From positions 23,560,001 to 23,624,000 of the forward strand of contig NC_086108.1 in assembly GCF_963921235.1 (NCBI RefSeq): a stretch of 64,000 bases of DNA. Reading direction: 5' to 3'. The number at the start of each line of letters is the position of its first letter. Position 1 is the stretch's first letter. Both the position numbers and the translations under genes were made by a program. This document shows positions 8,066-62,517 of the stretch, in pieces. This DNA is from Mobula hypostoma (lineage: Eukaryota). The notes beneath the pieces are model-generated. The model saw only the letters and a list, made by a program, of their open reading frames with translations, was not told the origin of the DNA and ran no database searches.

Positions 8066-8345
8066 GATCATAAGATATAGGAGCAGAATTAGACCATTCA
8101 GCCCATGGAGTCCGCTCCGCCATTCCATCATGGCTGAATCCAGATCCCACTCAACCTCACACACCTGCCCTCTCACCATATTCCCTGATGGTCTGACCAA
8201 TCAGGAATCTATCAACTTCCACTTTAAATATACCCACGGACTTGGCCTCCTCCGCAGTCTGTGGCGGAGCATTCCACAGATTCACCACTCTTTGGCTAAA
8301 CCTCTCTTTCGCCTGCATTTGAACACTCTCACAACTGAGTTGCAA
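8066..8345 (-). mobile_element. CR1 3' fragment
   Basis: Peptide FSQRVVNLWNAPPQTAEEAKSVGIFKVEVDRFL plus a CR1 3' UTR (reverse of gcagaattagaccattcagccc). Confidence 0.8.
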
Positions 8346-8349
8346 TGTT

Positions 8350-8757: not shown

Positions 8758-8999
8758 GAAAGCTTGAAGGGTTTGGCCTTACTCACCTGAAAAATGAACG
8801 GTCTGCCTTGGGAAAATTCAGGAGCGTGGAATGAGTAGCTCTAATTTTCAAATCAAAATGAAACTCTGCTCTGCCCCTTGCAATTCCTACTCCACATTCA
8901 CATCAGGCACATTCCAATGGTTTGACACACGTGTAGCATGTTATATTATGATTGACAGCAAGGAAGAAGTTAGAGACTGGCCAATCTTGGAATCAATAC

Positions 9000-12295: not shown

Positions 12296-12533
12296 TCAGA
12301 AGTCTTTATGTTCTCCATAGTCATTGTACAGCACAGTCAGGAACTGTTCCTCACAGATCTTTTTGACCTCTGTGTTCAGCTCTTGCCAATTTATTCCTGA
12401 GGGCCGCATCTCACTGTATCGGCAGGACAGGTACTTCAAGGAGACTCGGCGAAGGGTGATTTTGGGCTCCCGAAGGAGGCTTCTGCACCAGCTGCTCAAC
12501 TCCTCCAACTTGGACAGGATCAGGCCAGCTTTC
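12296..12533 (-). CDS. ASTN1: Astrotactin-1, terminal coding exon
   Basis: The minus strand reads cctgcag|G AAA GCT GGC..., giving (R)[78 protein letters not shown]. This matches the recalled ASTN1 C-terminus (KAGLILSQLGDLSSWC...LKYLGCRYSEIKP...CEEQTLSIPYNDYGDSKEI). AG acceptor at 12535-12534, TGA at 12298-12296. Confidence 0.95.
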
Positions 12534-12535
12534 CT

Positions 12536-19359: not shown

Positions 19360-19447
19360 AACTCAAGAGATCCTACAGATGCTGGAGATCCAAAGCAACA
19401 CAAACAAAATGCTGGAGTAACTCAGCAGGTCAGGCAGCATCTATGGA
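19360..19447 (-). mobile_element. Penelope terminal-repeat fragment
   Basis: The sequence cagatgctgga...caaaatgctggagtaactcagcaggtcaggcagcatctatgga is shared with the 3' end of the Penelope at 47422-47480. Confidence 0.65.
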
Positions 19448-21232
19448 AATAGAACATAGAATAGTACAGCACAGTAGCTTGGTGAACACTATGGGCCAAT
19501 GAGAATAGCTTGGAGAACACTATGATCAGGGTAGACTGCTGGACTGAAGGGCCTGTTGCAACGCCATTTTGCTCTGTGACTCTATAAAAGCAACATAACT
19601 TGTGAACATGTACAAAACATTTAAAGATTATGGGGCCAAAATCTTTCAAGAGCCATTGAAGTTTGGAGCAGGAAATCATGGGCTGAACTTGATGCTGACA
19701 CTTCAGTGATTTTTAAAAATTAATCTTTTTATAACAGTTCAGTGATCTTGTGTGCAAACGTTGAGATGCTCTTGGCATCAGTGAACATAGCTCATTTGAC
19801 CTGTCAAAGGAAACTTCCACCTTGTGCCTGAGGTTCAATTTAAGCCAGATTTAAGCTGCAAATCATCCTTCCTCAACTTTCTCTCTCCATTAGTACAGCC
19901 TGTTCTGCTGAGTATGTCCCAGCAACATTCAACACAGACAAAAAAGTGTGGTTGTTGCCTAACTTCCAATTATCCAATTTGATCTGATCTTACCCTGTAC
20001 AGTAAATCTCTCTGTCCTGTCCATCCCTTCATCTGCCTCCTCTGCAAATTAAAACTAACTACTTTTCCTCATTTTCCCAGATCTGATGTAAGTTCTTCCA
20101 CCTGAAATGTTAACTTTGTTTCTCCTATCATTTTGCAGACTTTCTACTGAGCGGTTCCAGTATCTTTTTGTTTTTGTTTCAGAATTTCAGCATCTGCAAG
20201 AACAAGGTCAGTAAATTCAATGGCACATCAACATGTCTAAGTCACACAGCATTCTGATTTGAAATTAGCTCACCACTCCTTAACAAATGCCATGTCTAAA
20301 TTGCTAATTTTTTCATCTAACAGAGCTGTGGAAGTTCCTTTATTTTATCGACTGCAAAGGTCCAAGGAGAAATCCACCAGAACTCAGGGCAATTAGGGAT
20401 ATTAATGTCTTGGTGTCAGCCCATAATTGATAAATAACTTTAAAGTTCATGTTTCCCATTCTTCACCCCATAAAAACATTTTCATAGGTTTGCTAGGATT
20501 ATCATATGTTTAGCTTGAACTTCAACAGGGAAACCTAAAGACATCGGAGATCAACCACAGTGACAGTGAAATCTCAAGTGTGGGGGCTTCTCTTATTTTC
20601 TGTCTCAGCGTTGAATTGTCAGTGATTACCACACTGAAGTCACCATTTTCTGGACATGAAATTCCTGTTGAGAGCCACTTGAAAAGTGGCAACCCACCTC
20701 GTACCACACCTGGTGTCCTCTTGAGGGAAATTTGTTCCACCCCATTGGGATTGTATTTTGAATACCATTGGAAGGTTGAAACTGCACCAGTAATTAAAAG
20801 CAAACTCCATGGTTAAGAGTACCCTACTGAGGAATGTAGTCTGCAAAGAAAAGTAAGAACCAAATGATTTACAGCTAATTAGTTCTGTTCAATAGTAAAT
20901 TCATTCTCAGAAATAATTTCAGTTCTTTATAATTTTAAAATAATCAGTGAATGGCCTTTCCTAATTACATAGACTAACAATCATAGTCAATCATGCATTT
21001 GTATAATTTCATCCCTGTGCTAGTCTATCATTTCATTAGTCTGTTCTCCCTGTGAATAAGTTTTTATTCTTGTAAGAGAAGGTAATGTTGAACTCTGAGC
21101 ACCGTGAATTATTATTGCATCACTATTGCCTCTAGGCATTATGAACCAGATTACCACAGCTTGAAATTGCCCCTGAACATGCCTGGAGCAATAAAGGTGA
21201 GTCTATCTTGTTAATAGTTGAAGTGGATGTAC

Positions 21233-21416
21233 CTTGGTCCCAACTCATCTTCGCAGCGCCAAGTAAATTCTCCAAAGTGCTCATAGTCCTGATTGTAGTG
21301 GTAATAGACTCGGTGTAGAGTAGACGAGCCCAGATCCATCAGCGTATTGTATGCAGTTTGTTGTTCCTTTCCACTTGTATAACCATTGAATAAGTTATAG
21401 ATTTTGTCGGCAATTT
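21233..21416 (-). CDS. ASTN1: Astrotactin-1, penultimate coding exon (184 bp)
   Basis: ttccacag|AA ATT GCC ... GGA CCA AG|gtac translates to (E)[60 protein letters not shown](R). Phases join both neighbouring exons (G|AA=E, AG|G=R). Confidence 0.96.
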
Positions 21417-22069
21417 CTGTGGAAGAAACTAAAGTAAATTAGTTTTTACTTTTTAGCCAGTTCAGGCAAACATTGTGGGCTGAATAGCCTGTTGCTGTGA
21501 TGTACTGTTCTGTGTTCTGTGTTCAGTGTTTAAAGGGGAGATGAAGAACTCAAAATCTCTTCAACATGTTAGTAAATGTCACGAAGCCCAAGTCTGACCA
21601 CAAAGTAAATGGAATAAAACAACAATTAATGTTTCAAATAAGTTTAATAGATTTGATGATATTGATTGGAAGTGTTCTTTCAAGTGGGGGTGTTTTGGGT
21701 AAGGGAGGATAATTCAGACATTAGGGTGATAACAGGAGGGGCAGAGCTAGATTTTACATAAAAACAGAGATTGTGAGGAATATCCAACAGGTTGGTCAGT
21801 GCTTGTGGGAGCAATACAGAATTAGTGTTTTAATATAATCTATAATGTCTATAATATCATCAGCACTGAAAATTCAGAGAAAATATTTTAAGTTGCACAG
21901 AGAGGGAGAGGAAGAGAGAGCAAGGGGATAGCTTATGATAAAGTGGAGCTCAAGGTTGTCCAGGTAACACAAATAATTTCAGTGCCATCTAGGAGAGAGA
22001 TCTGTCTGTGCAATTGGAGGAAGATGAAAAAAGGTAGTTAGAAACATACAGACTATGTTGGGACTGAGA

Positions 22070-23474: not shown

Positions 23475-23728
23475 GAATTCTGCAGATGCTGGAAATTCAA
23501 GCAACACACATCAAAGTTGATCACCTGTCCAGCTGTTGGCTCCATCCTTCCCCCTCCTGTCTTCTCCTATCATTTTGGATCTCCCCCTCCCCCTCCCACT
23601 TTCAAATCTCTTACAAGCTCTTTTTTCAGTTAGTCCTGACAAAGAGTCTCGGCCTGAAACGTCGACTGTACCTCTTCCTAGAGATGCTGCCTGGCCTGCT
23701 GCGTTCACCAGCAACTCTGATGTGTGTT
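23475..23728 (+). mobile_element. Penelope terminal-repeat insertion with inverted end and mutated hammerhead
   Basis: Flanked by a 19-bp direct repeat acaaaactgcaagcaacag (23456-23474 / 23729-23747). Hammerhead-like agtcCTGACAAagagtctcggcctGAAACGTCgact at 23632-23667. Confidence 0.8.
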
Positions 23729-24499
23729 ACAAAACTGCAAGCAACAGTTTTAGGTGAAAACCTTCCTGCTCTAAATTGAGAATGAAACTGGAAACCCAGA
23801 TTGTTGGGCACCCCTAGAACACAGTGCCACTTCAGAGCAGCAGTGAGTATACCACTCTTGGGTGCCAGCCCAGATGTTGTAGCCAAGCCTCTGATGCGGG
23901 TTTGATCTACAAATACCTTACAAGTGTGCAAATCTCTGAGTCACAGTGGAAGTGCTTTGGACCGATCATTGGCAGGATCGTGAATGCTGATACATACACA
24001 AAAAAAAATCTGTTCCAAGCAGTTGCGACAACAAAGATAACAAATAACTAAGCAATGCATTAAAAGCTGCAATTACTGGCAGTAAGGATCAGCAGAGCAC
24101 AATGCAGAGGTTAAATCCACTGAATGAGATGCTTCTTCTTTGGACCAGATGGCAGATTTTTAGAGTTAGACAATAATTTTTTGCACTACATATTTTTTTC
24201 TGAGTTAGAGGGAAGTGTTTTGGGGTTAGTGGACAGTGCTTTCGGTTACAGAACAGATCTTTTCATCTGAAGGGTGTTCAGCATTCACAGAAATCCATCT
24301 CTATGAGAAAGAGTCTAAAAATCATACCAGTGAGAAAACTATTCCCCTTTACAGGATTCTACTGACAGAAGTCTGCATTCATTGTGATATATTGAAAGCA
24401 GTGACAGGAGCGTAATGTGTTTTAAATTTGGAGGCTGAACCTGGAGGCAAACTTTGCCAGATGGAAGCTGTGGCCAAGAAGCTTCTTTTTGAAGTCCAC

Positions 24500-28865: not shown

Positions 28866-29228
28866 TCTGGTGAGAGTTTCATTTGCTCTTCATAAAGAGA
28901 ATCATATGGTAACATTTGATACAGTATATTCCCATGGACAACTTGCAGACAATGTTATCCTACCCTTTAGCTAAAAATAAATTTCATTGAGGTTATTGCA
29001 TGTAATTTGAAAGCTGTGAGTGATCCTGTGTAAATGTCTCTCCAACAGTAAACATATCAACACAAAAGGACAAAATGTGGAGTACGGAGTAAATAATAAC
29101 ATGCATGATCATTGATTATGTAGAACAGACAGTAGATGATGTGGCTAGTACAGGTGGTAAGTACTCAGGGTCTAATGGATTTGTGGAATTGAGAAGCTGT
29201 TAAAAATGGTTGCAAGTAGGAAAGGTAC

Positions 29229-29329
29229 CTTTAGCCTTAACGTCATCCACGAGTGGACAGGGGACTTTGACGGTAACCGCACTTGGTCTAGAGCGCCTTC
29301 CAGTGTTGTCTACAGTCCACAAGGAAAAC
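29229..29329 (-). CDS. ASTN1: Astrotactin-1, third-last coding exon (101 bp, end of FN3-like domain)
   Basis: caaactag|G TTT TCC ... GCT AAA G|gtacc translates to [33 protein letters not shown](E), matching the astrotactin motif [32 protein letters not shown]. Confidence 0.95.
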
Positions 29330-29879
29330 CTAGTTTGAACACAAAGAATCCCTGAAGTTAGCATTGGCACTGTTAGATAACACAGTTACCCAATGAATCA
29401 TTGACGTTTGGGCAGAAGCACGTACTGGCACCTCTGAAGTGTGGCTGCTGCAGCATTTACAAGGTAGACTAAAACCATCTGTGATTCCAGCTGCAGCTTA
29501 CTTCAGAACAGAAATAGCACTGGACAACATCTAAGTAGAAGCAGACTCATGTTATATATTTAGCCACTTTGGCAGAACAGGTAGTCCTCGAGAATGAGCA
29601 GAGCATCAGACAACAGTCAGACCAGATGTGGCTGCTACTTGTGATACTTTGATTTCACATATAATCTCATCTTTTTATAATACTTTGGATTTTTACACTG
29701 TGTGTAGTAAAACAGAAGGTCCAAAAGTTCAATTTCAGAGAATGAGGCCATGTGGCAAAAGAGTAACTTTGAAGGAAGAATTTGATATGCGAAAGAGTTA
29801 AAGTGATTGGCTATGCTGACAGTGGTAGAGTGTGGGAAAGTTGGGGAGACTGATGGAACTTTGTGACTTCAAAGAGAAA

Positions 29880-34789: not shown

Positions 34790-34920
34790 GAGAAAATGTG
34801 CAGATGCTGGAAATCCAAGCAACACACACAAAATGCTGGAGTAACTCAGCAGGCCAGGCAGCATCTATGGGGGAAAAAGTACAGCGGATGTTTCCGGCTG
34901 AGACCCTTCGTCAGGACTGT
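34790..34920 (-). mobile_element. Penelope terminal fragment with degenerate hammerhead
   Basis: The minus strand reads acagtcCTGACGAagggtctcagccgGAAACATCcgctgt, followed by the shared terminal repeat. Confidence 0.75.
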
Positions 34921-34939
34921 TTAATTATGCATTGGTTTC

Positions 34940-37079: not shown

Positions 37080-40000
37080 TCAGAACCCCGCCCCAGACTT
37101 CCCTCCATACCCCCTGATCCCCGTAGCCACAAGGGCCATATCTAACTCCCTCTTAAATATAGCCAATGAACTGGCCTCAACAGTTTCCTGTGGCAGAGAA
37201 TTCCACAGCTTCACCACTCTCTGTGTGAAGAAGTTTTTCCTAATCTCGGTCCTAAAAGGCTTCCCCTCTATCCTCAAACTGTGGCCCCTCATTCTGGACT
37301 TCCCCAACATCGGGAACAATCTTCCTGCATCTAGCCTGTCCAATCCCTTTAGGATCTTATACGTTTCAATCAGATCCCCCCTCAATCTTCTAAATTCCAA
37401 CCAGTACAAGCCCAGTTCATCCAGTCTTTCTTCATATGAAAGTCCTGCCATCCCAGGAAACAATCTGGTGAACCTTCTTTGTACTCCCTCTATGGCAAGG
37501 ATGTCTTTCCTCAGATTAGGGGACCAAAACTGCACACAATACTCCAGGTGTGGTCTCACCAAGGCCTTGTACAACTGCAGTAGTACCTCCCTGCTCCTGT
37601 ACTCGAATCCTCTTGCTATAAATGCCAGCATACCATTCGCCTTTTTCACCGCCTGCTGTACCTGCATGCCCACTTTCAATGACTGGTGTATAATGACATC
37701 CAGGTCTCGTTGCACCTCCCTTTTTCCTAATCGGCCACCATTCAGATAATAATCTGTTTTCCTATTTTTGCCACCAAAGTGGATAACTTCACATTTATCC
37801 ACATTAAATTGCATCTGCCATGAATTTGCCCACTCACCCAACCTATCCAAGTCACCCTGCATCCTCTTAGCATCCTCCTCACAGCTAACACTGCCACCCA
37901 GCTTCGTGTCATCCGCAAACTTGGAGATGCTGCATTTAATTCCCTCATCCAAGTCATTAATATATATTGTAAACAACTGGGGTCCCAGCACTGAGCCTTG
38001 CGGTACCCCACTAGTCACCGCCTGCCATTCTGAAAAGGTCCCGTTTATTCCCACTCTTTGCTTCCTGTCTGCTAACCAATTCTCCACCCACACCAATACC
38101 TTACCCCCAATACCGTGTGCTTTAAGTTTGCACACTAATCTCCTGTGTGGGACCTTGTCAAAAGCCTTTTGAAAATCCAAATATACCACATCCACTGGTT
38201 CTCCCCTATCCACTCTACTAGTTACATCCTCAAAAAATGTTATGAGATTCGTCAGACATGATTTTCCTTTCACAAATCCATGCTGACTTTGTCCGATCAT
38301 TTCACCGCTTTCCAAATGTGCTGTTATCACATCCTTGATAACTGACTCCAGCAGTTTCCCCACCACCGACGTTAGGCTAACCGGTCTATAATTCCCCGGT
38401 TTCTCTCTCCCTCCTTTTTTAAAAAGTGGAGTTACATTAGCCACCCTCCAATCCTCAGGAAATAGTCCAGAATCTAATGAGTTTTGAAAAATTATCACTA
38501 ATGCATCCACTATTTCTTGGGCTACTTCCTTAAGCACTCTAGGATGCAGACCATCTGGCCCTGGGGATTTATCTGCCTTCAATCCTTTCAATTTACCTAA
38601 CACCACTTCCCTACTAACATGTATTTCGCTCAGTTCCTCCATCTCACTGGACCCTCTGTCCCCTACTATTTCTGGAAGATTATTTATGTCCTCCTTAGTG
38701 AAGACAGAACCAAAGTAATTATTCAATTGGTCTGCCATGTCCTTGCTCCCAATAATCAATTCACCTGTTTCTGTCTGCAGGGGACCTACATTTGTCTTTA
38801 CCAGTCTTTTCCTTTTTACATATCTATAAAAACTTTTACAGTCCGTTCTTATGTTCCCTGCCAGTTTTCTCTCATAATCTTTTTTCCCCTTCCTAATTAA
38901 GCCCTTTGTCCTCCTCTGCTGAACTCTGAATTTCTCCCAGTCCTCAGGTGAGCCACTTTCTCTGGCTAATTTGTATGCTTCTTCTTTGGAATTGATACTA
39001 TCCCTAATTTCTCTTGTCAGCCACGGGTGCACTACCTTCCTTGATTTATTCTTTTGTCAAACTGGGATGAACAATTGTTGTAGTTCATCCATGCAATCTT
39101 TAAATGCTTGCCATTGCATATCCACCATCAATCCTTTAAGTGTCATTTGCCAGTCTATCTTAGCTAATTCACGTCTCATACCTTCAAAGTTACCCCTCTT
39201 TAAGTTCAGAACCTTTGTTTCTGAATTAACTATGTCACTCTCCATCTTAATGAAGAATTCCACCATATTATGGTCACTCTTACCCAAGGGGCCTCTCACG
39301 ACAAGATTGCTAATTAACCCTTCCTCATTGCTCAAAACCCAGTCCAGAATAGCCTGCTCTCTAGTTGGTTCCTCGACATGTTGGTTCAAAAAACTATCCC
39401 GCATACACTCCAAAAAATCCTCTTCCTCAGCACCTTTACCAATTTGGTTCACCCAATCTACATGTAGATTGAAGTCACCCATTATAACTGCTGTTCCTTT
39501 ATTGCACACATTTCTAATTTCCTGTTTAATACTATCTCCGACCTCACTACTACTGTTAGGTGGCCTGTACACAACTCCCACCAGCGTCTTCTGCCCCTTA
39601 GTGTTACGCAGCTCTACCCATATCGATTCCACATCTTCCCGGCTTATGTCCTTCCTTTCTATTGCATTAATCTCTTCTTTAACCAGCAATGCCACCCCAC
39701 CTCCCCTTCCTTCATGTCTATCCCTCCTGAATATTGAATATCCCTGAACGTTGAGCTCACATCCCTGGTCACCCTGGAGCCATGTCTCTGTGATCCCAAC
39801 TATATCATAATCATTAATAACAATCTGCACTTTCAATTCATCCACCTTATTACGAATGCTCCTTGCATTGACACACAAAGCCTTCAGGCGCTCTTTTACA
39901 ACTCTCTTAGCCCTTATACAATTATGTTGAAAAGTGGCCCTTTTTAATGCTTGCCCTGGATTTGTCGGCCTGCCACTTTTACTTTTCTCCTTTGTACTTT

Positions 40001-40112
40001 TTGCTTCTACCCTCACTTTACACCCCTCTGTCTCTCTGCACTGGTTCCCATCCCTCTGTTGTGAACTAACCTCCTCACGCCTAGCCTCTTTAATTTGATT
40101 CCCACCCCCCAA
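37080..40112 (-). pseudogene. CR1 ORF2 (APE endonuclease + RT), one premature stop
   Basis: ORFs 39057-40112 and 37080-39032 are in the same frame, separated only by TGA at 39059-39057. The sister copy has TGG (Trp) at this position. Confidence 0.92.
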
Positions 40113-40117
40113 CCATT

Positions 40118-41048
40118 CTAGTTTAAAGTCACCTCAGTAGCCCCCGCTAATCTCCCTGCCAGGATATTGGACCCCCTAGGATTCAAGTGTAACCCGTCCT
40201 TTTTGTACAGGTCACGCCTGCACCAAAAGAGGTCCCAATGATCCAAAAACTTGAATCCCTGCCCCCTGCTTCAATCCCTCAGCCACGCATTTATCCTCCA
40301 CCTCATCGCATTCCTACTCTCACTGTTGCGTGGCACAGGCAGTAATCCCGAGATTACTACCTTTGCGGTCCTTTTTCTCAACTCCCTTCCCAGCTCCCTA
40401 TATTCTCCTTTCAGGACCTCATCCCTTTTCCTACCTATGTCATTGGTACCTATATGTACCACGACCTCTGGCTCCTCACCCTCCCACTTCAGGATATCTT
40501 GGCAACGATCAGAAATATCGGGACCCTGGCACCAGGGAGGCAAACTACCATCCGGGTCTCTGGACTGCGTCCACAGAATCGCCTATCTGACCCCCTTACT
40601 ATCGAGTCCCCTATCACAACTGCCCTCCTCTTCCTTGCCCTACCCTTCTGAGCTACAGGGCCAGACTCTGTGCCGGAGGCACGGCCACTGTCGCTTCCCC
40701 CGGGTAAGCTGTCCCCCCCAACAGTAAACAGGAGTACCTGTTGTTAAGGGGCACAGCCACCGGGGTACTCCCTGTTACCTGACTTTTCCCCTTCCCCCTC
40801 CTAACCGTGACCCACTTGTCTGCCTCCCGTGGCCCCGGCGTGACCACCTGCCTGCAACTCCTCTCTATCAACTCCTCACTTTCCCTGACCAGATGAAGGT
40901 CATCGAGCTGCTGCTCCAGTTCCGTAACGCGGTCCCTTAGGAGCTGCATCTCGATGCACTTGGCGCAGATGTAGACGTCCGGGAGGCTTGGAGACTCCAG
41001 GGCCTCCCACATCCGACACCGAGAACAGCAAACTGCCCTCACACTCAT
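40118..41048 (-). pseudogene. CR1 ORF1 (zinc finger/leucine zipper + SGNH esterase), frameshifted
   Basis: Peptide MSVRAVCCSRCRMWE...YICAKC..LLRDRVTELEQQLDDL. After a frameshift near 40727 it continues GDSIVRGSDRRFC and VVVHIGTNDIGRK. Confidence 0.85.
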
Positions 41049-44000
41049 AATGCCCCTCTCCTCAAATAGCAACAGAAAATGAACGTCAAACCTTCCTCGC
41101 CTCGCCCGCTTCCGCCTAAGCCCGGTGAGCCGAAGCCCTTAAGTTTTCACTCTGCTCCCGGCTCACTCCGCAGCCCGCAAACTACGCTGCCCGCTCTATG
41201 AGGCTTTGTTCCTTTTAAATCTGCTGCACTGCACTGCCCGACGTCACATGCCTGCGCAGTCCCGCCTCTCAGAAAGCCGTTGGAGAAAAAAAAATAACGA
41301 AAATTTCAAAAATGTCTTTCTCGGCACTCCCACTCAGACTCTCAGACTCCTTCTTCGAATCAAACCCGAAGCAGTAATGCACCGGGTCAGGTCACAGATC
41401 TCTCAGTGGGTGAGCATCTAGGGGACAGTGACCACCGCTCCCTGGCTTTTAGCATTTATCATGGAAAAGGATAGAATCAGAGAGGACAGGAAAATTTTTA
41501 ATTGGGGAAGGGCAAATTATGAGGCTATAAGGCTAGAACTTGCGGGTGTGAATTGGGTTGAGTTTTTGCAGGGAAATATACTATGAGCATGTGGTCGATG
41601 TTAGAGATCTCCTGCAGGATGTTAGGGATAAATTTGTCCCAGTGAGGAAGATAAAGAATGGTAGGGTGAAGGAACCATGGGTGACAAGTGAGGTAGAAAA
41701 TCTAGTCAGGTGGAAGAAGGCAGCATACATGAGGTTTAGGAAGCAAGGATCAGATGGGTCTATTGAGGAATATAGGGAAGCAAGAAAGGAGCTTAAGAAG
41801 GGGCTGAGAAGAGCAAGAAGGGGGCATGAGAAGGCCTTGGCGAGTAGCGTAAAGGAAAACCCCAAGGCATTCTTCAATTATGTGAAGAACAAAAGAATGA
41901 CAGGAGTGAAGGTAGGACTGATTAGAGATAAAGGTGGGAAGACGTGACTGGAGGCTGTGGAAGTCAGCGAGGTCCTCAATGAATACTTCTCTTCAGTATT
42001 CACCAATGAGAGGGAACTTGATGATGGTGAGGACAATATGAGTGAGGTTGATGTCTGGAGCATGTTGATATTATGGGAGAGGAGGTGTTGGATTTGTTAA
42101 AATACATTAGGACGGATAAGCCCCCGGGGCCAGACGGAATATTCCCCAGGCTGCTCCACGAGGGAAGGCAAGAGATTGCTGAGCCTATGGCTAGGACCTA
42201 AAGGTCCTCGTTGTCCACGGGAATGGTACCGGAGGATTGGAGGGAGGCGAATGTTGTTCCCTTGTTCAAAAAAGGTAGTAGGGATAGTCCGGGTAATTAT
42301 AGACCAGTGAGCCTTACATCTGTGGTGGGAAAGCTGTTGGAAAAGATTCTTAGAGATGGGATCTATGGGCATTTAGAGAATCATGGTCTGATCAGGGACA
42401 GTCAGCATGACTTTGTGAAGGGCATATCGTGTTTAACAAGCCTGATAGAGTTCTTTGAGGAGGTGACCAGGCATGTAGATGAGGGCAGTGCAGTGGATGT
42501 GATTGATATGGATTTTAGTAAGGCATTTGACAAGGTTCCACACGGTAGGCTTATTTAGAAAGTCAGAAGGCATGGGATCCAGGGAAGTTTGGCCAGGTGG
42601 ATTCAGAATTGGCTTGCCTGCAGAAGGCAGGGGGTCGTGGTGGAGGGAGTACATTCAGATTGGAGGATTGTGACTAGTGGTGTCCCACAAGGATCTGTTC
42701 TGGGACCTCTACTTTTCGTGATTTTTATTAACGACCTGGATGTGGGGGTAGAAGGGTGGGTTGGCAAGTTCGCAGACGACACAAAGGTTGGTTGTGTTGT
42801 AGATAGTGTCGAGGGTTGTCGAAGATCGCAGAGATACATTGATAGGATGCAGAAGTGGGCTGAAAAGTGGCAGATGGAGTTCAACCCGGAGAAGTGTGAG
42901 GTGGTACACTTTGGAATGACAAACTCCAAGGCAGAGTACAAAGTAAATGGCAGGATACTTGGTAGTGTGGAGGAGCAGAGGGATCTGGGGGTACATGTCC
43001 ACAGATCCCTGAAAGTTGCCTCACAGGTGCATAGGGTAGTTAAGAAAGCTTATGGAGTGTTAGCTTTCATAAGTCGAGGGATAGAGTTCAAGAGTCGCGA
43101 TGTAATGATGCAGCTCTATAAAACTCTGGTTAGGCCTCACTTGAAGTACTGTGTCCGGTTCTGGTTGCCTCACTATGGGAAGGATGTGGAAGCATTGGAA
43201 AGGATACAGAGGAGATTTACCAGGATGCTGCCTGGTTTAGAGAGTATGCATTATGATCAGAGATTAAGGGAGCTAGGGCTTTACTCTTTGGAGAGAAGGA
43301 GGATGAGAGGAGACATGATAGAGGTGTATAAGATAATAAGAGGAATAGATGGAGTGGATAGCCAGCGCCTCTTCCCCAGGGCACCACTGCTCAATACAAG
43401 AGGACATGGCTTTAAGGTAAGGGGTGGGAAGTTCAAGGGGGATATTAGAGGAAGGTTTTTCACTCAGAGAGTGGTTGGTGCGTGGAATGCACTGCCTGAG
43501 TCAGTGGTGGAGGCAGATACACTAGTGAAGTTTAAGAGACTGCTAGACAGGTATATGGAGGAATTTAAGTTGGGGAGTTATATGGGAGGCAGGGTTTAAG
43601 GGTAGGTCCAACATTGTGGGCCGAAGGGCCTGTACTGTGCTGTACTATTGTATGTTCTATGGTCTATGCAGGAACTTGGACCTGCTGCAATATGCTTACA
43701 ATAAGTCTACTGCAGACACAATCTCACTGCCTCTCCACTCAGCCTTGAACCAGGACATCAGCAATAACTATGTCAGGTTGCTGTTTATTGATTACAACTC
43801 AGCATTCAACACCATCATACCCTCAGTACTAATCAACAAGTTTCAAAACCTGGGCCTCGTACCTCCCTCTGCAACTGCATCCTTGGCCTCTTCATCAGGG
43901 AACTGCAGTCAGTGCGGATCAGAAGTAACATCTCCTCCTTGCTGACATTCAACGCTGGCGCACTTCAAGGGTGTATGCTTAGTCCACTGCTCTACTCCCT

Positions 44001-44934
44001 TTACATCAATAACTGTGTGGCTAGGCACAGCTCAAATGGTGTCTATAAATTTGCTGATGACACAACTATTGTTGGCAGAATCTCAGATGACGACGAGGAG
44101 GTGTACGGGAATGAGATAGATCAGCTGGTTAAGTGGTGTTGCAATAATAACTTTGCATTCAATGTCAGTAAGACCAAGAAATTGATTGTGGACTTCAGGA
44201 AGAGGAAGTCGAGGGAACACACACCAGTCCTCATAGAGGGTTCAGCAGTGGGAAGGGTGAGCAGTTTCAAGTTCCTGGGTTCAACACCTCTGAAGATCTA
44301 TCCTGGGCCCAATATATGGATGCCATTACAAAGAAGGCACCTCAGCAGTTATACATTAAGAGGTTGAGGAGATTTGCTGTGTCACCAAAAACTCAAGCAG
44401 ATTTCTACAGATGTACTATGGAGAGCATTGTAGCTGATTGCATCATCATGTGGTATGCAGAGGCCACTGCAGAGTTGCAGACCCTTCCAGCTCCATAATG
44501 GACACGAGCTTCCACAGCAACAAGAATATCTTCAAAAGGTGATGCATCAAAAAGTTTGCATTCATCATTAAGGATCCCCAACACCCAGGATCTGCCCTCT
44601 TCTCACTGCTACCATCAGGGAGGATGTACAGGAGCCTGAAGACACACACTCAATGTTTTAGGAACAGCTTCTTCCCCTCTGCCATCAGATTTCTGAACGG
44701 CCAATGAACCCATGTACACAACTTCACTGTTTTTGATTTCTATTTGCAATAGCTAAATGAATTTGTTTGTAGTTTATTGTTTTTTTATGTATTGCATTGT
44801 ACTGCTGCCACAAAGCAACACATCTCACAACACATGTTAATGATATTAAACCTGATTCTGAATTAAGAAAGAATGGAATAGCTCCCAGAAAGCAAGAGCC
44901 TCTGAGCTAATAATTCACAAGGCATGCATCATCC

Positions 44935-45235
44935 ATAATCCATACTCAATGGGCATACATTTAAGGTGAGAAGGGCAATTGAAAAGGAGATGTGAGGGGC
45001 AAGCTTTTTACACAGAAAGTGGTGGATGCCTGGAATGCACTGGGGTGGTGGTAGAGGGACTTCTAAGAGATGTTTAGATAGGCACATGAATGTGAGGAAA
45101 ATGGAGGGATGTGGACATTGTGTAGCTGGGATAGGTTAGTTTAGTTAGCAATTTGATTACTGATTTAATTGGTTCAGCACAATGTTGTGTGCTGTACAGC
45201 TTTTTCCTGTGCTGTACTGTTCTATATTCTATGTT
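44935..45235 (+). mobile_element. CR1 3' fragment
   Basis: gggcatacatttaaggtgaga...tttttacacagaaagtggtggatgcctggaatgcact...ctgtgctgtactgttctatattctatg. Confidence 0.75.
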
Positions 45236-45844
45236 GTATAATATACAGGATTATACCCTGCATTTTACGGATTTCACCCTGCAAATGTCATTTATAATTT
45301 GTAGAAATAAAGCTCTGTGAAAAAGACCGAGATACTTTGAATTCAGCCTTCCAGATTATACCATAAATATGTATTCATGAATGAGTCCTCATGATAATCA
45401 AATGCACAGAATGACTATTTTGGTGTTTGAACTTGTTTTGAAACTTTTACACCTATATGGATTTTTCTCTCTTTACAGCAAAGTGGGCCTGTATACAGAG
45501 AACCTCTCAAAGTTCTAAACACAAATTTTTACCCTTTGAACTTAGCGTTTTGTTTAAAAATAGTCTTGATTGGGAAACTCCCTTGTTGGATGGGGGAGCC
45601 TTCGCGCGTGGAGAGTAAAACCATTTCAGTTATCCACGTTGATTGCATTCCAAAAGTCTGATAGCAAAAGGAGGATATGCATTAATTAGATGTGAACAGA
45701 AGCAAACTGAGCTACATGATTCAATAAATAGACTTCCTTTGTACTCCTCACACAAAAACGTTTCAACTCAGTGTGAGAAGCTCATGGATACTTGGACTCG
45801 TCAACACGAATGAAGAATTGAGTGAGAATTCTGAGTTATTATTA

Positions 45845-45917
45845 AGCACCAGCACAGGTGCTTTGAACTTGGAGTAAGAATGCAGTTCTTACTCCAAGTC
45901 AAAACAGTGCTTGGTTT
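45845..45917. repeat. Inverted repeat / hairpin
   Basis: Perfect 14-bp stem acttggagtaagaa (45867-45880) / ttcttactccaagt (45886-45899) with a 5-nt loop and an imperfect outward extension. Confidence 0.85.
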
Positions 45918-46299
45918 GGACTTTTAATTCTACCTTTCACCAAATGGTAAGGAGACTTGTAAGATCACCTAAGGTAAAGTAATAAGACAGCAAAGGCTTT
46001 GAGCTTGCTGATGCACTGAAATATGCCAATCCTTTTCCAAGGACCATGGGTTAATGTATGGATTGTTCGTGATGCTCTTCTTGAGCATGGGCTCAACTGG
46101 ATAATACTGTACTCTGACCCTGGTGGTTTAGATAAGGCATAGAGTACATTTCATATGTGCTCAAGGAATGGAAGGCCTGCACTCAGTGCCAGGATTTTTA
46201 TTCTAAATTACAACGGGTACAATAATTAAATAATGTGGTGTTAATGGATAATAATCTCTGACTAGAGTCCGTTCTAACAACATGATTAAAAAAAAAGTG

Positions 46300-46510
46300 A
46301 CACATACACAAAATGCTGGAGCAACTCAGCAAGTAAGGCAGCTTCTATGGAGAAGAATAAACAGTTGACACCCTTCGTCAGGGCACAGTCCCGAAACCCA
46401 AACCATCAAACTGTTTATTCCCTCCATGGGTGCAGTTCAAACTGCAGACTTCCCCAAGCATCCTGTGTGTGTTGCTCAAGATTTTCAACATCTGCAGAAT
46501 CCTGTGTTTG
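46300..46510. mobile_element. Two Penelope terminal fragments in inverted orientation
   Basis: 46300-46382 is a minus copy (...acccttcgtcagg) and ~46400-46510 a plus copy (ctgtttattc...agcatcctgtgtgtgttgc...catctgcagaatc). Confidence 0.6.
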
Positions 46511-47421: not shown

Positions 47422-48632
47422 AAATACACACAACACGCTGGAGGAACTCAGCAGGTCAGGCAGCATCCGTGGAAATGAACAGTCAACGTTTCGGGCCGAG
47501 ACCCTTCGTCAGGACTGAAGAGGGAGGGGGAAGGGGCCCTATAATGAAGGTGGGGGGAGGGTGGGAAGGAGAAGGCTGGTAGGTTCCAGGTGAAAAACCA
47601 GTAAGGGGAAAGATCAAGGGGTGGGGGAGGGGAAGCAGGGAGGGGATAGGCAGGAAAGGTGAAGAAGGAATAGGGGAAGCACAGTGGGTAGTAGAAAGAG
47701 GCGGAACCCTGAGGAAGGTGATAGGCAGCTGGGGGAGGGGGCAGAGTGAAACTGGGATGGGGGAAGGGAGGGGGAGGGAATTACTGGAAGTTGGAGAATT
47801 CAATGTTCATGCCAAGGGGCTGCAGACTACCCAGATGGTATATGACGTTTTGCTCCTCCAACCTGAGTTTGGCCTCATCATGGCAGTAGAGGAGGTCATG
47901 TATGGACATATCCGAATGGGAATGTGAAGCAGAGATGAAGTAGATGACAACCGGGAGATCCTGTCTGTTGTGGTGGACGGAGCAGAGGTGCTCGACGAAG
48001 TGGTCCTCCAATCTGCGGCGGGTCTCACAGATGTAGAGGAGGCCGCACCGGGAGCACTGGATGCAATAGATGACCCCAATAGACTCACAAGTGAAGTGTT
48101 GCCTCACCTGGAAGGACTGTTTGGGGCCCTGAATGGTGGCAAGATAGGAGGTGTAGGGACTGGTGTAGCAGTTACACTTACAGGGATAAGTGCCGGGTGG
48201 GAGATCCATGGGGAGGGACGTGAGGACCAGGGAGTCGCGGAGGGAACGATCCCTGCGGAAAGTGGAGAGAGGTGGAGAGGGAAAGATGTGTTTAGTGGTG
48301 GGGTCCTGTTGAGGGTGGCAGAAGTTGCGGAGGATAATGTACTGGATCCGGAGGCTGGTGGGGTGGTAGTTAAGGACAAGGGGATCTCTGTCCCTGTTGT
48401 GGTGATGGGACGATGGGGTGAGGGCCGAAGTGTGGGAAATGGAGGAGATGCAGGTGAGGGCATCATTGATGACAGCAGAAGGGAAACCACGATCCGTAAA
48501 GAAAGAGGACATTTGAGATGTCCTGGAACAGAAAGCCTCATCCTGGGAGCCGATGTGGTGGAGACAGAGGAACTGGGAATAGGGAATAGCATTTTTGCAT
48601 GTGGCAGCGTGGGAAGAGGTATAGTCCATGAT
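47422..48632 (-). mobile_element. 5'-truncated Penelope-like retroelement (RT C-terminus + GIY-YIG endonuclease + 3' terminal repeat)
   Basis: Open 282-aa frame at 47781-48629: DYTSSH..CKNAIPYSQFL...RGFP...HFTCESIGVIYCIQCSRCGLLYICETRRRLEDHFVEH...GMN. The YIGET motif is mutated to YICET. Confidence 0.92.
47480..47517 (-). ncRNA. Minimal type-I hammerhead ribozyme motif (Penelope-associated)
   Basis: RNA CAGUC-CUGACGA-A-GGGU-CUCG-GCCC-GAAA-CG-UU-GACUG: helix I CAGUC/GACUG, intact core, 4-bp helix II, loop-less palindromic helix III and a GUU cleavage triplet. Confidence 0.8.
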
Positions 48633-50047: not shown

Positions 50048-52925
50048 CTCCTCCCCTTTTATTTTAATAGTGTATCAACTGTTTTTTTTTACTGGGGCAC
50101 TATGGTAAACAAATATGTTTACCCTTAACATACACATGCCTACTAGTTGTTTACAAATTATAACAAAGTAACTTAATAATATCAAATTATAACAAGCCTT
50201 CTTTTTCTTTTTTTAACTTTTGGTCTAAGACCCATTTATAACTCAAGAAACATCATTGCTGGAGTCTGATTAGTGGTTGCATGTCCTGCATTACAATAGG
50301 CAAGGAGGAAGTTGTCTATCTTGTGTTGCAGTGGTCGATTTTCACTGTCCATTGCCTTGATGGCTTTCTTGAATGTCTGCACAAATCTTTCTGCCAAGCC
50401 ACTTGTGGATGGATGGTAAGGGGCAGATGTAAAGTGCTTGATTCTATTGTTCTTCGCAAAACTTTGGAATTCTTCAGAGACAAATTGTTGTCCATTGTCT
50501 GTGCAGATTTGTTCTAGTATGCCATTCCTGGCAAGCATGGCTCTCAGAACTGTAATGATCTTTTCCAATGTGGTTGTCTTCATTTTGATGACCTCTGGCC
50601 ATTTGGAATGTGCATCGACAGCGATTAAAAAGATGGAGTCCATGAATGGTCCAGCAAAGTCGATGTGCACATGTGGTGATGAGGGCCATTTCCATGGATG
50701 GAGAGGGGCTTGTGGTGATGTGTTCTGGATCTTTTGACATCCAGAGCAGTTCTTGGTCAAGTCCTCAATCTGTTTATCAATTCCTGGCCACCACACATAG
50801 GCACGGGCAAGACTTTTCATTTTCACGGTACCCAGGTGCCCCTTGTGCTGTTCCTCCAGCACCCTGGTGCATAGCTTGGGAGGAATCACAACTTGTGAAC
50901 CTCACATTAGTGTTCCCCAACACACTGACGACCGCTCCTTCCTCACTGAGAAGGCTGGAAACAGTGTGTTACCACGCGCTGGCCATCCCTTTACTGTGAT
51001 GTCATATACTTTTGACAACATAGGGTCATTGCATGTTCCTCTTTCAATTAGGCTGTTTGTCACTGGTAATTGTTCAACTATTGTTGTGTGAAAGACCTCT
51101 TTTGAATCCATTTGTGTAGTTATCTCTGAAGCCGGCAGTGGTAAATGTGACAAACCATCTGCTTGGCCATATTGCTTGGTCCCCTTGTGTTCCATGTCAT
51201 GCATGTGACCTCCTAAGAAAAGAGACCATCGCTGCAGCCTTTGTGCTGTCATCACTGGAACACCTTTTCTTGGGTTGAAGATTGACACGAGAGGCTGATG
51301 GTCAGTCAACAGGGTAAACTTTTGACCATACAGGTAGTGACTGAATTTCTTGACTCCCCACACGAGGCTTAGGGTCTCTCTGTCAATCTGTGCGTAGTTG
51401 CATTCAGCTGAAGTTAGCGTTCTTGAGGCAAAGGCTATTGGTCTTTCTGAGCCATCTGAAAACTTGTGCAATAACACAGTTCCTATCCCATGGGGCGAGG
51501 CATCACAAGCCAGTCGGATTGGTAAGGAGGGGTCAAAGTGCGCGAGCACCCCTTCTCAAGTTATGAGTCTTTTAGTTTCTTGAAACACTCTTTCCCAGCT
51601 CTCAGTCCACTTCCATTGTGTCCCTGTCTGTAATAGTGCATTTAGTGGGTGTGGGACTGTGAATAGGTTAGGCAAGAACTTGTGGTAATAGTTCACTAGT
51701 CCCAAGATATGCTCTCAGCTGAGACACATTTTCAGGTGGTGGTGCATTAAGCACCGCTTCTATCTTGTCTTGAGACATGTGTAAGCCATCCTTGTTGATC
51801 ACATGCCCACAGTATGAGATTTCCTTTTTGAAAAACCCACATTTCCGGCGATTAGCTCTGAGCCCATATTCTCGTCACCTGGTGAGCACTTGTTCAAGGT
51901 TAGAAAGATGTTCGTCGTCATCTTGGCCAGTGACAATGATGTCATCCAGGTAACACTGAGTCCCTGAAATCCCCTGCAGGACCTGGTCCATTGCCCTTTG
52001 CCAGATTGCAGGAGCTGATGCTATCCCAAAAACCAACCTGTTTTACTGGTAAAGTCCTTTGTCTGTATTTATTGTCAGGTATTTCTTGGATGCTTCCTCG
52101 ATTTCCATTTGGAGATAAGCCTGGGCCAAATCAATTTTTGTGAATCGATTCCCTCCTGACAGGGAAGCAAAGATGTCCTCAATACAAGGTAGGGGACACT
52201 GTACTGTGCGGAGAACTGGGTTAACAGTCACTTTAAAGTCACCACATATGCGCACCTTGCTTGGTTTTCCTGGTTTCATGCTGGAGGTTTTCTTCATCAC
52301 TGGAACAATAGGTGTGGCCCATTCACTCCAATCCACCTTTGACAGGACCCCAGTCTGCTCCAGATTTTTCAGCTCTGCCTCTACTGTAGGATGGATTGCA
52401 TATGGCACTGGTCTGGCTTTGTGAAATTTTGGACATGCATTTTCCTCAATCTCCATCTTTGCCTTCATGCCCTGAAGTGTTCCTTTTCCTTTCATGAACA
52501 CTTTCTCAGAGTCAGCAAGTATTTGTGACAGTCTCTCAGATGTAGCCTTGCTGCCCTCCGTTGCTGACACACCTAGTGCCTTGATGGTGTACCAATCCAA
52601 CTGGATTTTCCTGAGCCATTCATGTCCCAGCAACAGTGGTCCTCCATTTTTCAGTACATAGAGGTTCAGCTGCTGTGTTTTATCTCCGTAGGTCACTGTC
52701 ACTTTAAGTTTACCTTTGGGACACACCCTCTGTCCTGTGTAAGTCTTTAGCAGCAGTTTAGATTGTTTCAGAGGTATGTGAGAAAACAGTCATTTGTAGT
52801 CGTGTACAGAGATCACCTTTAAAGCTGAGCCTGTGCCCAACTCCATTTTCAGTCTCATGCCTGCCACTTGTGGAGTGATCCACATTACTCTTCGATCATC
52901 GGTCACTATCACGCGGTGAAGTTGC
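49880..52925 (-). mobile_element. Gypsy LTR retrotransposon (Mag-like), 5' part missing
   Basis: Order protease (MELGTGSA), RT (WATPIVPV, RICGDFK, QCYLDD at 51958-51941), RNase H (LACDAS, LLTDHQPL), integrase (HKGHLG..WWPG..C..C, HIDFAGP, DNG, LAERFV). PPT aaaaggggaggag at 50060-50048. Confidence 0.92.
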
Positions 52926-59910: not shown

Positions 59911-61672
59911 TGTTATGCACCAAACCATGCCAGTTTAGATGCTCTGAATCTCCAGAGTGTGGATAGCTGGTGCAGTCCCTTTAAAGATTCTGGTCCACTT
60001 GGCTAGTTGGCAACCATGTTTTAACACCAAGGTTTCAATATTTAAAGAGCACCTAAACTCAGATTTGGTGCTCAATCATCAGTTCAACTTTTGTTCAGTC
60101 TGCTATTGCATTTAGGATTTGTCTCATTTGGATTCTCATCAAGTCTCATCAGGTTCTCATCTAGCATCTAGTCAGGAACCCTTTTCTCATCCAAGTCTTG
60201 AAATGATGTCTCGATTCTAGTCTCGGATAGTCCAGCACTTAGGTCCTAACCATCCTCACCTAGGCCTTTTGTCACAGTATGATTGAGCCAACATGGACCC
60301 AGTGGGTTATCTGAGTCTCTCATCAGCTATGGCCAGCCACTGTGAGCAGATCTCAAGACAGGGCCTGGGTATATATGACTTCCGGGTCACCATGCATTAT
60401 TGCCACTTGGTGAAGCCAGAACCTCTTGGGTGAGGCCGTTGGTAGCACTGTGGAGTCAATACATCGTTTGACCCCGGAGATGTCCGATGGTGACCCGGGT
60501 TCTTGCTGCGGCTTCCTCACACAGTGCTCGTTGGGAACTTCAACCGTCCTGGTTTTCAATGGAGTGTGGAAAGGTGGCCTTAGTAATTTCTTTCCTGACA
60601 GGGAGAACTCTGGCCTGGGTCACCATGCATTGAGAGTGGAGGTCAGTGATTTGCTCTGATTCGGAAAAATTCATGAACATCATGGAGTAGGCTTCGCGAA
60701 CCCCATGGAGAGTGTGTTCCACCATCCCATCGGAGCTAACAGATCCTTGGATCATCTGATGAAGTTACATCAAGGTAGTCAGTAAGCACCTAACTATGCA
60801 ATTGAATTTCGGTCTTTGGCCGAAGTGTGTGGCTGGAATGGGGAGACCTTGGCCACTCTGTACCGCCACAGACTCCGAGGCAAATTAAAGAATACCCTTT
60901 CTTCAGGAGAGCCGATAGAAGACTTAAAGGTTCTGATTGATCAGTCCATCCTCTTCGATAGCTGCCTGGCAGAGCCAAAGTGGGACTATCTCAAGAGGTC
61001 GAAGAAGACTAGCTCAAGCCCAGCTTCTTCACATCATAGTTCCACTTTCTGACCTTGGACAATGACCCCGTTGAGACAATGCAAATCGGCTGCACAAGAA
61101 TCTCCACTGATGTGAGGTCCTGGCATCAGAGTCAAGGTTGTTGCTATTACTGCAGAGAAACAGGCCACCTGTGGGCTGAATTTCTGAAGCTGCCGCCATC
61201 AGGGAACTGCTAAGACCATCCAGTGATGGGAGGACTGTAAAAGTAGCAGTCAATACTCCCAACCCTACAGATTCCGGTGTAATGCTGAAGACGGAGATCT
61301 CCTGGGGAAAGAACCTATGAAAGGCGAATGCCTTTGTGGACTCTGGGGCAGCTGGTAATTTCCTGGACTTGGGGACAGCCCATCAGCTCAACATACCCTT
61401 GCAGGAGCTGAGCCATCACATAACCGCAACTGCCCTGGAGAGATGTCCTCTTGGGTCGGGCAACAGACATCGGTTTTGCAAATGAGAAAAGGGGATATTT
61501 GTTTTCATATCACATACCCCTGATCCTTGGGCACACTTGGCTGACAAGCATAACCCTTCCATGAACTGGGAGGATGGAAGAATCATCGCATGGACAAGTC
61601 TTTATAAACAGGAATATTTTTGGTTTGGTATTCTGACTCCCAGACTCTCCCGAGACCAGCAGATTGAGGAGG

Positions 61673-61805
61673 GTCCTGACGAAGGGTCTCGGCCTGAAAC
61701 ATTGACTGCACCTCTTCCTAGAGATGCTGCCTGGCCTGCTGCGTTCACCAGCAACTTTGATGTGTGTTGCTTGAATTTCCAGCATCTGCAGAATTCCTCT
61801 TGTTT
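61673..61805 (+). mobile_element. 133-bp Penelope terminal insertion starting at a hammerhead motif
   Basis: 12-bp TSD agattgaggagg (61661-61672 / 61806-61817). Begins gtcCTGACGAagggtctcggcctGAAACATTgac. Confidence 0.85.
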
Positions 61806-62517
61806 AGATTGAGGAGGCATTCCTTTGCTCGGGGTAACCCGAAACCTTTGGGAGACACAAGGGCAGAAAAGCCTGTTCTAGTCAACAGGACCGTGTGAGC
61901 ACCGACCCAGTCTAGTCACAGGTGAGCTGGAACTGGAGAGAAAGGGTCTCTAGTTCAGGAAAAAGCCAAGAAGCCTGTCAAGGAGGTGTCCAAGAATTCT
62001 GGAGCCCCAGCAGCCAAGCCTAAGGGAACCAGTCGTCAGGTCCCGTCTAGGGGAAAGACTCCTAAATGTAAATCCTAGAGCCTCGTCCCAGGAGGATAAA
62101 GACCATCCGTAGCCATCATCCGAGAATACAGATGAAAACTTGGACTCTGCTTTGGTCAAGAATCTGGAGTCGGATAAAGATTCCAATTTGGATTTATTTC
62201 AACAAAGGACTCTAGTGAATATATGGAGGTGACTCTGAATTGGAGCATTAAGAAGGGTTTTGGCCCGAAATGTCAGCTGGACTCTTTTCCATAGATGCTG
62301 CCTAGACAGCTGAGTTCTTCCAGCATTTTGTGCATATTGTCTGGAATGACCGCGGACCCAAGGGTTGCCAGAACCCTTGAGTTCATTAAGAGGAGACACT
62401 GGTGTTGTGGAATGACTGAAGAAGACCAGCAATACGTGCAAGTATGCAACGTGTGCGTCTGGAACAAGGAATTCAACAACCAACCTCTGGGGTTCCGTCA
62501 CTCTCTACATGGGAGAG

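What the first reader, a model, noticed from the sequence alone, without database searches (positions are those of the whole stretch)
47480..47517. Complete minimal hammerhead ribozyme in a Penelope element, in the sense orientation of the ASTN1 pre-mRNA
Seen: the minus-strand RNA CAGUC-CUGACGA-A-GGGU-CUCG-GCCC-GAAA-CG-UU-GACUG has the conserved hammerhead core, a 5-bp helix I, a 4-bp helix II and a loop-less self-complementary helix III (AACGUU). It lies ~260 nt downstream of a GIY-YIG ORF. Established: Penelope-like elements carry such minimal type-I hammerheads, which are thought to cleave as dimers. Inference: this copy sits in an ASTN1 intron on the transcribed strand, so it could cleave the nascent transcript by pairing with another copy. 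Related motifs at 23632, 34881, 46370, 61673 and 62253, and very decayed ones at ~20080 and ~22150, suggest a very high-copy ribozyme family in this genome.
Basis: partly seen in the sequence, partly recalled or inferred. Interest (0 to 1): 0.75.

Follow-up and report, generated by a model that had tools for sequence, protein, structure and literature searches.

The report
Passenger hammerhead in dead Penelope copy
The 38-base motif is a real minimal hammerhead-ribozyme sequence at the end of a broken Penelope-like jumping gene inside an ASTN1 intron of a cartilaginous fish; it is one of more than 50,000 near-identical copies and is likely an inert passenger rather than a cutter of the host gene's RNA.

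Summary
Window 47480-47517 (minus strand) is a minimal type-I hammerhead, 264 nt behind the stop of a 5'-truncated Penelope-like element (47423-48628), on the transcribed strand of a 61-kb ASTN1 intron. This kind is described (Cervera and de la Peña 2014). Three exact 29-mer patterns match 52,736 places in the genome.

The proposed cutting of ASTN1 pre-mRNA is not supported:
- In 1.65 Mb of ASTN1, sense and antisense copies are equally common (126 vs 134; core intact 27 vs 20).
- The core decays about as fast as its flank.
- No other foldable sense copy lies in this intron.
- The predicted fold is an inactive hairpin.
- The insertion is absent at this site in 3 of 4 relatives' runs; the fourth is uninformative.

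Fossil copy ends show that uncut RNA was mostly copied. No copy of 68 ends at the cut site, and 5' ends pile up at the hammerhead's outer edge instead. No cleavage or RNA data were available. Verdict: a new member of a known kind, most likely a passenger.

The parts
47480..47517 (-). Minimal type-I hammerhead motif: helix I 47513-47517 with 47480-47484; core 47506-47512; extra A 47505; helix II 47501-47504 with 47493-47496; GAAA 47489-47492; C15.2-G16.2 47488-47487; U16.1 47486; U17 47485; predicted cut 47485|47484
47423..48628 (-). 5'-truncated Penelope-like element copy, about 1.2 kb, no inverted partner, no evident target-site duplication; about 90% identical to subfamily siblings
47781..48628 (-). 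ORF remnant: region after the RT active site, Cys linker and GIY-YIG nuclease. The RT core is missing. Changes against longer copies: YIG to YIC, RF to HF, CYTC to CYTS, THF to IYF
47518..47780 (-). Pyrimidine-rich 3' non-coding part of the pseudo-LTR, ending in a pyrimidine tract plus CAG and an Inr-like TCAGT at the start of helix I
   Evidence: motif labels recalled
47423..47479 (-). 3' end of the copy. It stops about 62 nt past the cut site, at the shorter of the family's two end classes, so without the optional ~35-nt tail
29227..29337 (-). ASTN1 exon bounding the host intron on its 3' side (next exon upstream is C50:23650749-23650898, outside the window)
21229..21429 (-). ASTN1 second-last coding exon
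12299..12535 (-). ASTN1 last coding exon
34801..34925 (-). Short sense copy in the same intron: 11 core bases intact, helices I and III broken
46302..46499 (.). Decayed head-to-head pair (46302-46386 minus, 46410-46499 plus); helix II and GAAA deleted in the sense arm
61669..61804 (+). Short antisense copy starting at the outer edge of helix I; core intact, helix III palindrome lost
62248..62350 (+). Decayed antisense copy
23593..23741 (+). Antisense copy in the next intron, G8 lost
19369..19455 (-).

Best explanation
This is a minimal hammerhead motif carried at the 3' end of a dead, 5'-truncated Penelope-like retrotransposon copy in an ASTN1 intron, and it is likely an inert passenger that does not cut the ASTN1 transcript to any extent that matters. 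SHOWN: the anatomy, the copy number, the equal orientation in ASTN1, and decay of the core at about the flank's rate. INFERRED: the element's RT starts inside its RNA, about 60-70 or 95-110 nt past the ribozyme, and copies uncut RNA, so almost every insertion carries one hammerhead. PREDICTED: alone, the motif folds G5-A6-C7-G8 onto C15.2-G16.2-U16.1-U17, which hides the cut site. INFERRED from literature: catalysis needs a second copy for helix III and probably the element's protein, so it acts, if at all, on transcripts of active tandem elements. Selection kept the motif in those parent elements, not in the inserted copies.
For: Copy number: 7,317 + 42,362 + 3,057 exact matches, reversed-pattern controls 0. 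Orientation in 1.65 Mb (58%) of ASTN1: 126 sense of 260; 67 of 142 without an inverted partner; 27 of 47 with all 11 core bases; 9 of 20 passing the full descriptor. Core vs flank mismatches in 43 young copies: A/T 2 of 300 vs 12 of 774, C/G 4 of 129 vs 35 of 903; G12 is changed in 49 of 111 older copies. No other foldable sense copy among the 8 profile hits in this intron. Folding: inactive hairpin -12.9 kcal/mol vs open form -10.5; active double hammerhead -19.3 vs two hairpins -25.8. 68 of 68 copies found by their upstream part run at least 40 nt past the cut site. Contigs of 3 of 4 other organisms carry unrelated sequence at the junction. Literature: weak dimer activity (PMC4209133); no cleavage without protein, uncut RNA the main substrate, no reads at the site (PMC11167929).
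Against: No cleavage assay and no raw RNA reads. The orientation test covers one gene and excludes only strong depletion (sense share 0.42-0.55 for all copies, 0.42-0.72 for intact cores). A cut intron may be harmless and so leave no orientation signal (recalled). Pooled core mismatch is slightly lower than flank (107 of 1385 vs 520 of 5510, p 0.047), though that flank includes subfamily differences. This copy's 38 nt match the sibling majority at every column while the rest differs by 4.4% at non-CpG and 23% at CpG sites; it was chosen for being intact. Copies starting exactly at the cut site are about 1.9 times those starting 2 nt later, which allows some cleavage in the family. Folding energies ignore Mg2+ and tertiary contacts.
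Confidence: 0.8

Rival explanations
1. The copy is cut occasionally, when the element's protein or a chaperone refolds it with a partner RNA from another locus, but the cut intron is still spliced and nothing follows for the host.
For: The core and both helices are intact. GUU is listed among active triplets (PMC3138052, passages). Protein-assisted cleavage was shown for the anole element. Potential partners are plentiful. There is a weak excess of copies starting at the cut site.
Against: The inactive hairpin and the A14-U17 mispaired dimer (-21.9) are both more stable than the active dimer (-19.3). About a third of the first 100 cut-site starts look like helix-I fold-back junctions (hand count). 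Antisense copies in the same intron could pair with it instead.
Confidence: 0.12
2. One reading: the copy cuts nascent ASTN1 RNA by pairing with another copy and thereby affects the gene.
For: It is sense, intronic and intact. Conserved intronic hammerheads exist in amniotes (PMC6155905, passages).
Against: No sense depletion or core-specific conservation. No foldable partner in this intron; the nearest full-descriptor sense copy is 328 kb away. The insertion is missing at this site in 3 of 4 relatives' runs, unlike domesticated intronic hammerheads.
Confidence: 0.06
3. In this family the motif is no longer kept as a catalyst but as a promoter, splice or protein-binding signal that happens to retain the hammerhead pattern.
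For: The most amplified subfamily has U instead of the conserved C at 11.1 (42,362 copies). This copy's subfamily carries GUU in 25 of 28 matches. 5' ends pile up at the start of helix I, where an Inr-like and acceptor-like signal lies. Naiad PLEs spread without hammerheads (PMC8557442).
Against: The core is the same in the majority of the main subfamily clusters while the upstream UTR breaks alignment between subfamilies. An older subfamily shows a C-G to U-A change in helix I (hand-picked rows).
Confidence: 0.1

Closest known systems
Minimal hammerheads (min-HHR) of metazoan Penelope-like elements (Cervera and de la Peña 2014, PMC4209133; parts 1-2 of 4 read, 2 of 3 supplements searched)
   Same: Type I; helix I 4-5 bp; unpaired base between A9 and G10.1; G10.1-C11.1; palindromic 15.2-16.2 with no loop 3; in the terminal repeat of a PLE; mostly single, dispersed copies.
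   Different: Helix II is 4 bp, not the 7-8 bp of the Schistosoma motifs. Copy number is well above the 4,000-9,000 given for coelacanth and Xenopus. No cartilaginous fish is named in the parts and supplements I saw.
PAc, the Poseidon element of Anolis carolinensis (Frangieh et al. 2024, PMC11167929; parts 1-2 of 4 read)
   Same: Two 3' end classes about 35 nt apart just past the hammerhead; uncut RNA is what gets inserted.
   Different: This family has the Cys linker that Penelope/Poseidon lacks. I found no start codon at the beginning of helix II. Nothing was tested biochemically here.
Neptune-type EN+ PLEs (Craig et al. 2021, PMC8557442; passages read)
   Same: RT, then a CX3CxxC linker, then a C-terminal GIY-YIG with CCHH; 5' truncation; head-to-head inverted partners; optional tail.
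   Different: Clade not tested by a tree. No full-length tandem copy was found among the 14 long loci I fetched.
Conserved intronic hammerheads of amniotes, e.g. RECK (PMC6155905; passages read)
   Same: Type-I hammerhead in a host intron.
   Different: Those are conserved across species. This one is minimal, still inside its element, and missing at the same site in relatives.
Non-LTR retrozymes (Li, Clavereau and Pollet 2026, 10.64898/2026.07.22.740005; part 1 of 5 and passages read)
   Same: PLE-derived type-I hammerheads, reported in one chondrichthyan genome.
   Different: Retrozymes are head-to-tail arrays. This is a single coding, truncated PLE copy. Their intron depletion (Xenopus) was not split by strand in the passages I saw.

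Membership tests
PLE minimal hammerhead (min-HHR) | Conserved core CUGANGA, GAAA, UH | tested here: met
PLE minimal hammerhead (min-HHR) | Type-I topology with helices I and II, extra base between A9 and G10.1, G10.1-C11.1 | tested here: met
PLE minimal hammerhead (min-HHR) | Palindromic 15.2-16.2, no loop 3 | tested here: met
   ACGU
PLE minimal hammerhead (min-HHR) | Located in the terminal repeat of a PLE | tested here: met
PLE minimal hammerhead (min-HHR) | Compensatory changes across families | tested here: inconclusive
   C-G to U-A at the innermost helix I pair in 6 of 12 rows. The 6 old rows were hand-picked from 20 fetched of 308 matches; 10 of those 20 have no helix I.
PLE minimal hammerhead (min-HHR) | Site-specific self-cleavage as a dimer | not testable with these tools
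   needs an assay
Rfam hammerhead families | Match to a curated covariance model | tested here: not met
   no hammerhead hit up to E 5; this does not count against the minimal form, which lacks helix III
EN+ Penelope-like element | One ORF with RT and C-terminal GIY-YIG | tested here: met
   RVT_1 and GIY-YIG in L230 and L231, both slightly under Pfam's cut-offs; the window remnant has no Pfam hit but is 81-86% identical to the family's copies
EN+ Penelope-like element | 5' truncation, inverted head-to-head partners, optional 30-40 nt tail | tested here: met
   59 head-to-head vs 25 tail-to-tail neighbours within 3 kb; inverted repeat in 39 of 73 loci and two 3' end classes
EN+ Penelope-like element | Partial tandem forming direct pseudo-LTRs around a full ORF | tested here: inconclusive
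   none seen directly upstream of the ORF in 14 long loci
Neptune clade | CX2-5CxxC linker plus CCHH in the nuclease | tested here: met
   L230 and L231; definition; Nematis shares a reduced form
Neptune clade | RT phylogeny | not tested
   no reference PLE set was at hand
Domesticated intronic hammerhead | Conserved at the same site across species | tested here: not met
   different sequence at the junction in 3 of 4 runs, fourth uninformative
Non-LTR retrozyme | Non-coding head-to-tail array | tested here: not met
   single copy behind an ORF remnant

The most novel reading that the evidence does not exclude
The family's hammerheads are latent switches. They rest in an inactive hairpin, and when the element's protein is expressed it refolds pairs of them. 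With roughly half a million relics and tens of thousands of intact cores, bursts of element activity would then cut thousands of host pre-mRNAs, ASTN1 among them, at a fixed site.
Probability: 0.06. Interest if true: 0.65.

Novelty: new member of a known kind. Interest (0 to 1): 0.2.

Why it matters
As a single site it matters little. The genome is useful as a natural experiment on an open question: what PLE hammerheads do in vivo. Two readouts came from it. Sense-strand copies are tolerated in a very long neural gene, and inserted copies mostly record uncut templates. Both agree with the in vitro result on the anole element. A genome-wide strand test and RNA end-mapping in a ray would test the question directly.

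Tried and rejected
Rfam scan: no hammerhead hit. Pfam on the window ORF remnant: no hit, even at E 1.

RNA evidence: no RNA holder listed. The runs laid were contigs, which cannot show ends or strand. I draw nothing on expression from them.

GUU as a private CpG decay of this copy: rejected, since 25 of 28 subfamily matches have it.

A fixed 5' end of the element at 48628: rejected as an artefact of using the window copy as query; longer copies extend further.

A cap-derived extra G before copies that start at -32: suggested by a handful of cases but not supported. About 37 of the first 100 genome matches have G (hand count) against 42% expected.

A shared upstream exon spliced onto helix I: no common upstream sequence among the short copies printed (by eye).

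The relatives' sequence at the empty site is not in the window or in 242 loci, so no target-site duplication could be defined; some flank was probably lost.

No full-length tandem element was found, so the ORF start and any intron are unmapped.

Lünse et al. 2017 (PMC5785218) is not held; I saw it only as cited in a review (PMC6765202, passages). Searches for a description in cartilaginous fishes found none beyond the one chondrichthyan in the retrozyme preprint. One supplement of PMC4209133 and the preprint's supplements could not be seen and may name such species. The first script timed out.

Full report
Observation. The minus strand at 47517-47480 has the hammerhead core, a 5-bp helix I, an extra A, a 4-bp helix II and a loop-less ACGU in place of helix III. 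My descriptor found this site and one other in the window and none in 40 local shuffles. Rfam has no matching model up to E 5.

Host. The frame at 12299-12535 is the last exon of astrotactin-1, 96% identical to the sawfish protein and 87-91% to skate and sharks, so the genome is probably a ray's (inference). With that protein, ASTN1 maps to C50:23.57-26.41 Mb on the minus strand; the weaker matches on C67 are presumably the paralogue. The motif lies in the 61-kb intron between window 29337 and C50:23650749, on the transcribed strand.

Element. The motif ends a 1.2-kb copy (47423-48628) about 90% identical to its subfamily. Its frame matches many genomic copies at 81-86%. [quoted passage not shown] The window copy lacks the RT core and has changes at conserved nuclease and linker residues, so it is very likely dead. 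Family hallmarks are present. Head-to-head neighbours outnumber tail-to-tail ones 59 to 25 within 3 kb. An inverted repeat sits in 39 of 73 loci, and 3' ends fall in two classes, about 57-75 and 94-115 nt past the cut site. This matches the optional tail and internal RT start shown for the anole element.

Copy number. Exact 29-mers number 7,317, 42,362 with U at 11.1 and 3,057 with another loop II; reversed controls gave 0. A profile finds 260 end segments in 1.65 Mb of ASTN1. That would extrapolate to about 550,000 in the genome if this gene is typical. The focal subfamily carries GUU in 25 of 28 matches, so the triplet was inherited from the parent element.

Orientation test. If sense copies cut the pre-mRNA harmfully they should be rarer than antisense ones. 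I read 58% of the gene's span. Sense copies were 126 of 260 overall (95% interval 0.42-0.55), 67 of 142 without an inverted partner, 27 of 47 with all 11 core bases among 156 copies spanning the motif, 13 of 28 in the young subfamily and 9 of 20 passing the full descriptor. Controls were also even: CR1-type LINE 17 vs 22, PLE ORF 22 vs 19. This excludes strong depletion in this gene only.

Conservation. In 43 young copies core and flank differ little (A/T 2 of 300 vs 12 of 774; C/G 4 of 129 vs 35 of 903). In the older group G12 is changed in 49 of 111 copies. Pooled over all copies the core is slightly better kept (7.7% vs 9.4%, p 0.047), but that flank includes subfamily differences. Between subfamilies the core stays the same while the upstream UTR does not align. 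An older subfamily shows a C-G to U-A change in helix I, from rows I hand-picked, so this is weak. The pattern fits selection in active parent elements and near-neutral decay after insertion. The focal motif matches its siblings at all 38 columns while the rest of the copy differs by 49 of 1114 non-CpG and 21 of 90 CpG sites; it was picked for being intact, so this is not evidence of selection.

Partners and folding. Of 8 profile hits in this intron, the two other sense ones are broken. The nearest sense copy passing the full descriptor is 328 kb away. The monomer's best fold pairs G5-A6-C7-G8 with C15.2-G16.2-U16.1-U17 (-12.9 vs -10.5 kcal/mol for the open form). The active dimer scores -19.3, against -25.8 for two such hairpins and -21.9 with A14-U17 mispairing. 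The hairpin is not unusual against shuffles (z -1.64), and in longer context helix I forms with probability about 0.4. These are secondary-structure estimates without Mg2+.

Orthologous site. Contigs from four unnamed organisms align to the left flank at about 87-96%. In three (X19, X21, X24) the sequence at the junction is not the element; X20 is uninformative. One X19 contig also starts matching at 48628 with 11 letters that do not fit. The insertion therefore looks lineage-restricted, unlike the conserved intronic hammerheads of amniotes.

What the copy ends record. None of 68 copies found by their upstream part ends at the cut site. Among 71 young copies found by their tail in the ASTN1 region, 21 of 52 that reach helix I stop between -39 and -26, about 15 times the upstream rate; 1 of 66 starts within 5 nt of the cut (arms of inverted pairs are not independent). 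Genome-wide, 1,302 copies start at -32 against 322 at -33. Starts at the cut site (272) exceed starts 2 nt later (100) by about 1.9-fold after normalising, and about a third of the listed ones look like fold-back junctions. So templates were mostly uncut, with a preferred 5' edge at helix I. A transcription start at the Inr-like TCAGT is my leading guess (about 45%). The cap-G test failed, and RT or junction effects of the hairpin (about 30%) or the acceptor-like site (about 25%) remain. In Drosophila Penelope the intron's 3' end maps to helix I and the start lies further upstream. Earlier scan notes on this genome, read only after these calculations, report the same pile-up; they are not independent support.

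Comparison and verdict. It works like, and meets the sequence-level definition of, the PLE minimal hammerheads of Cervera and de la Peña, whose dimers cut weakly in vitro. The anole motif cut only with its protein, and cutting was not needed for insertion. Catalysis is untested here. My searches found no description for a ray genome, but the kind is known. New member of a known kind; passenger reading 0.8; interest 0.2.

Noticed in passing
family-wide; e.g. window 61669-61804: About 40% of young copies that reach helix I begin at its outer edge (-39 to -26 from the cut site), giving insertions of roughly 100-140 nt that are little more than hammerhead plus tail. Cause unresolved.
   Followed up: partly
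G000, 42,362 exact matches: The most amplified subfamily has U at position 11.1, so the conserved G10.1-C11.1 pair becomes a wobble. This also removes the CpG that destroys G12 in other subfamilies.
   Followed up: partly
window 47515-47545 (minus); L003-L005 upstream of the core: A pyrimidine tract plus CAG sits at the start of helix I, preceded in some subfamily-A copies by a branch-point-like TACTAAC. In sense copies this could act as a cryptic splice acceptor in host introns.
   Followed up: no
G000:C50:23572296-26407622: ASTN1 spans 2.84 Mb in this genome; the weaker-matching paralogue on C67 spans about 1.76 Mb.
   Followed up: no
window 47425 and 48628: Relatives carry other sequence at the insertion site (255 letters of loose end shown in two runs) that was not found in the window, suggesting flank loss at or after insertion.
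   Followed up: partly
L229:3825-4331: A PLE copy holds a tandem expansion of a 27-nt coding unit (repeats of a 9-residue ITALISRT-like peptide) in frame before the RT.
   Followed up: no
window 50236-52789 (minus): Fragmented LTR-retrotransposon-like pol remnants (integrase domains by Pfam) in the same intron.
   Followed up: no
window 24777-27745 and 37080-41138 (minus); 1922-3843 and 41552-43599 (plus): Several long CR1/L2-type LINE copies with large open frames (RVT_1 confirmed for 24780-26384).
   Followed up: no
L239 and L240 (C30:7000-15000 and 38500-46500): Two nearly identical PLE copies in opposite orientation about 30 kb apart on a 710-kb contig, probably a segmental inverted duplication.
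   Followed up: no
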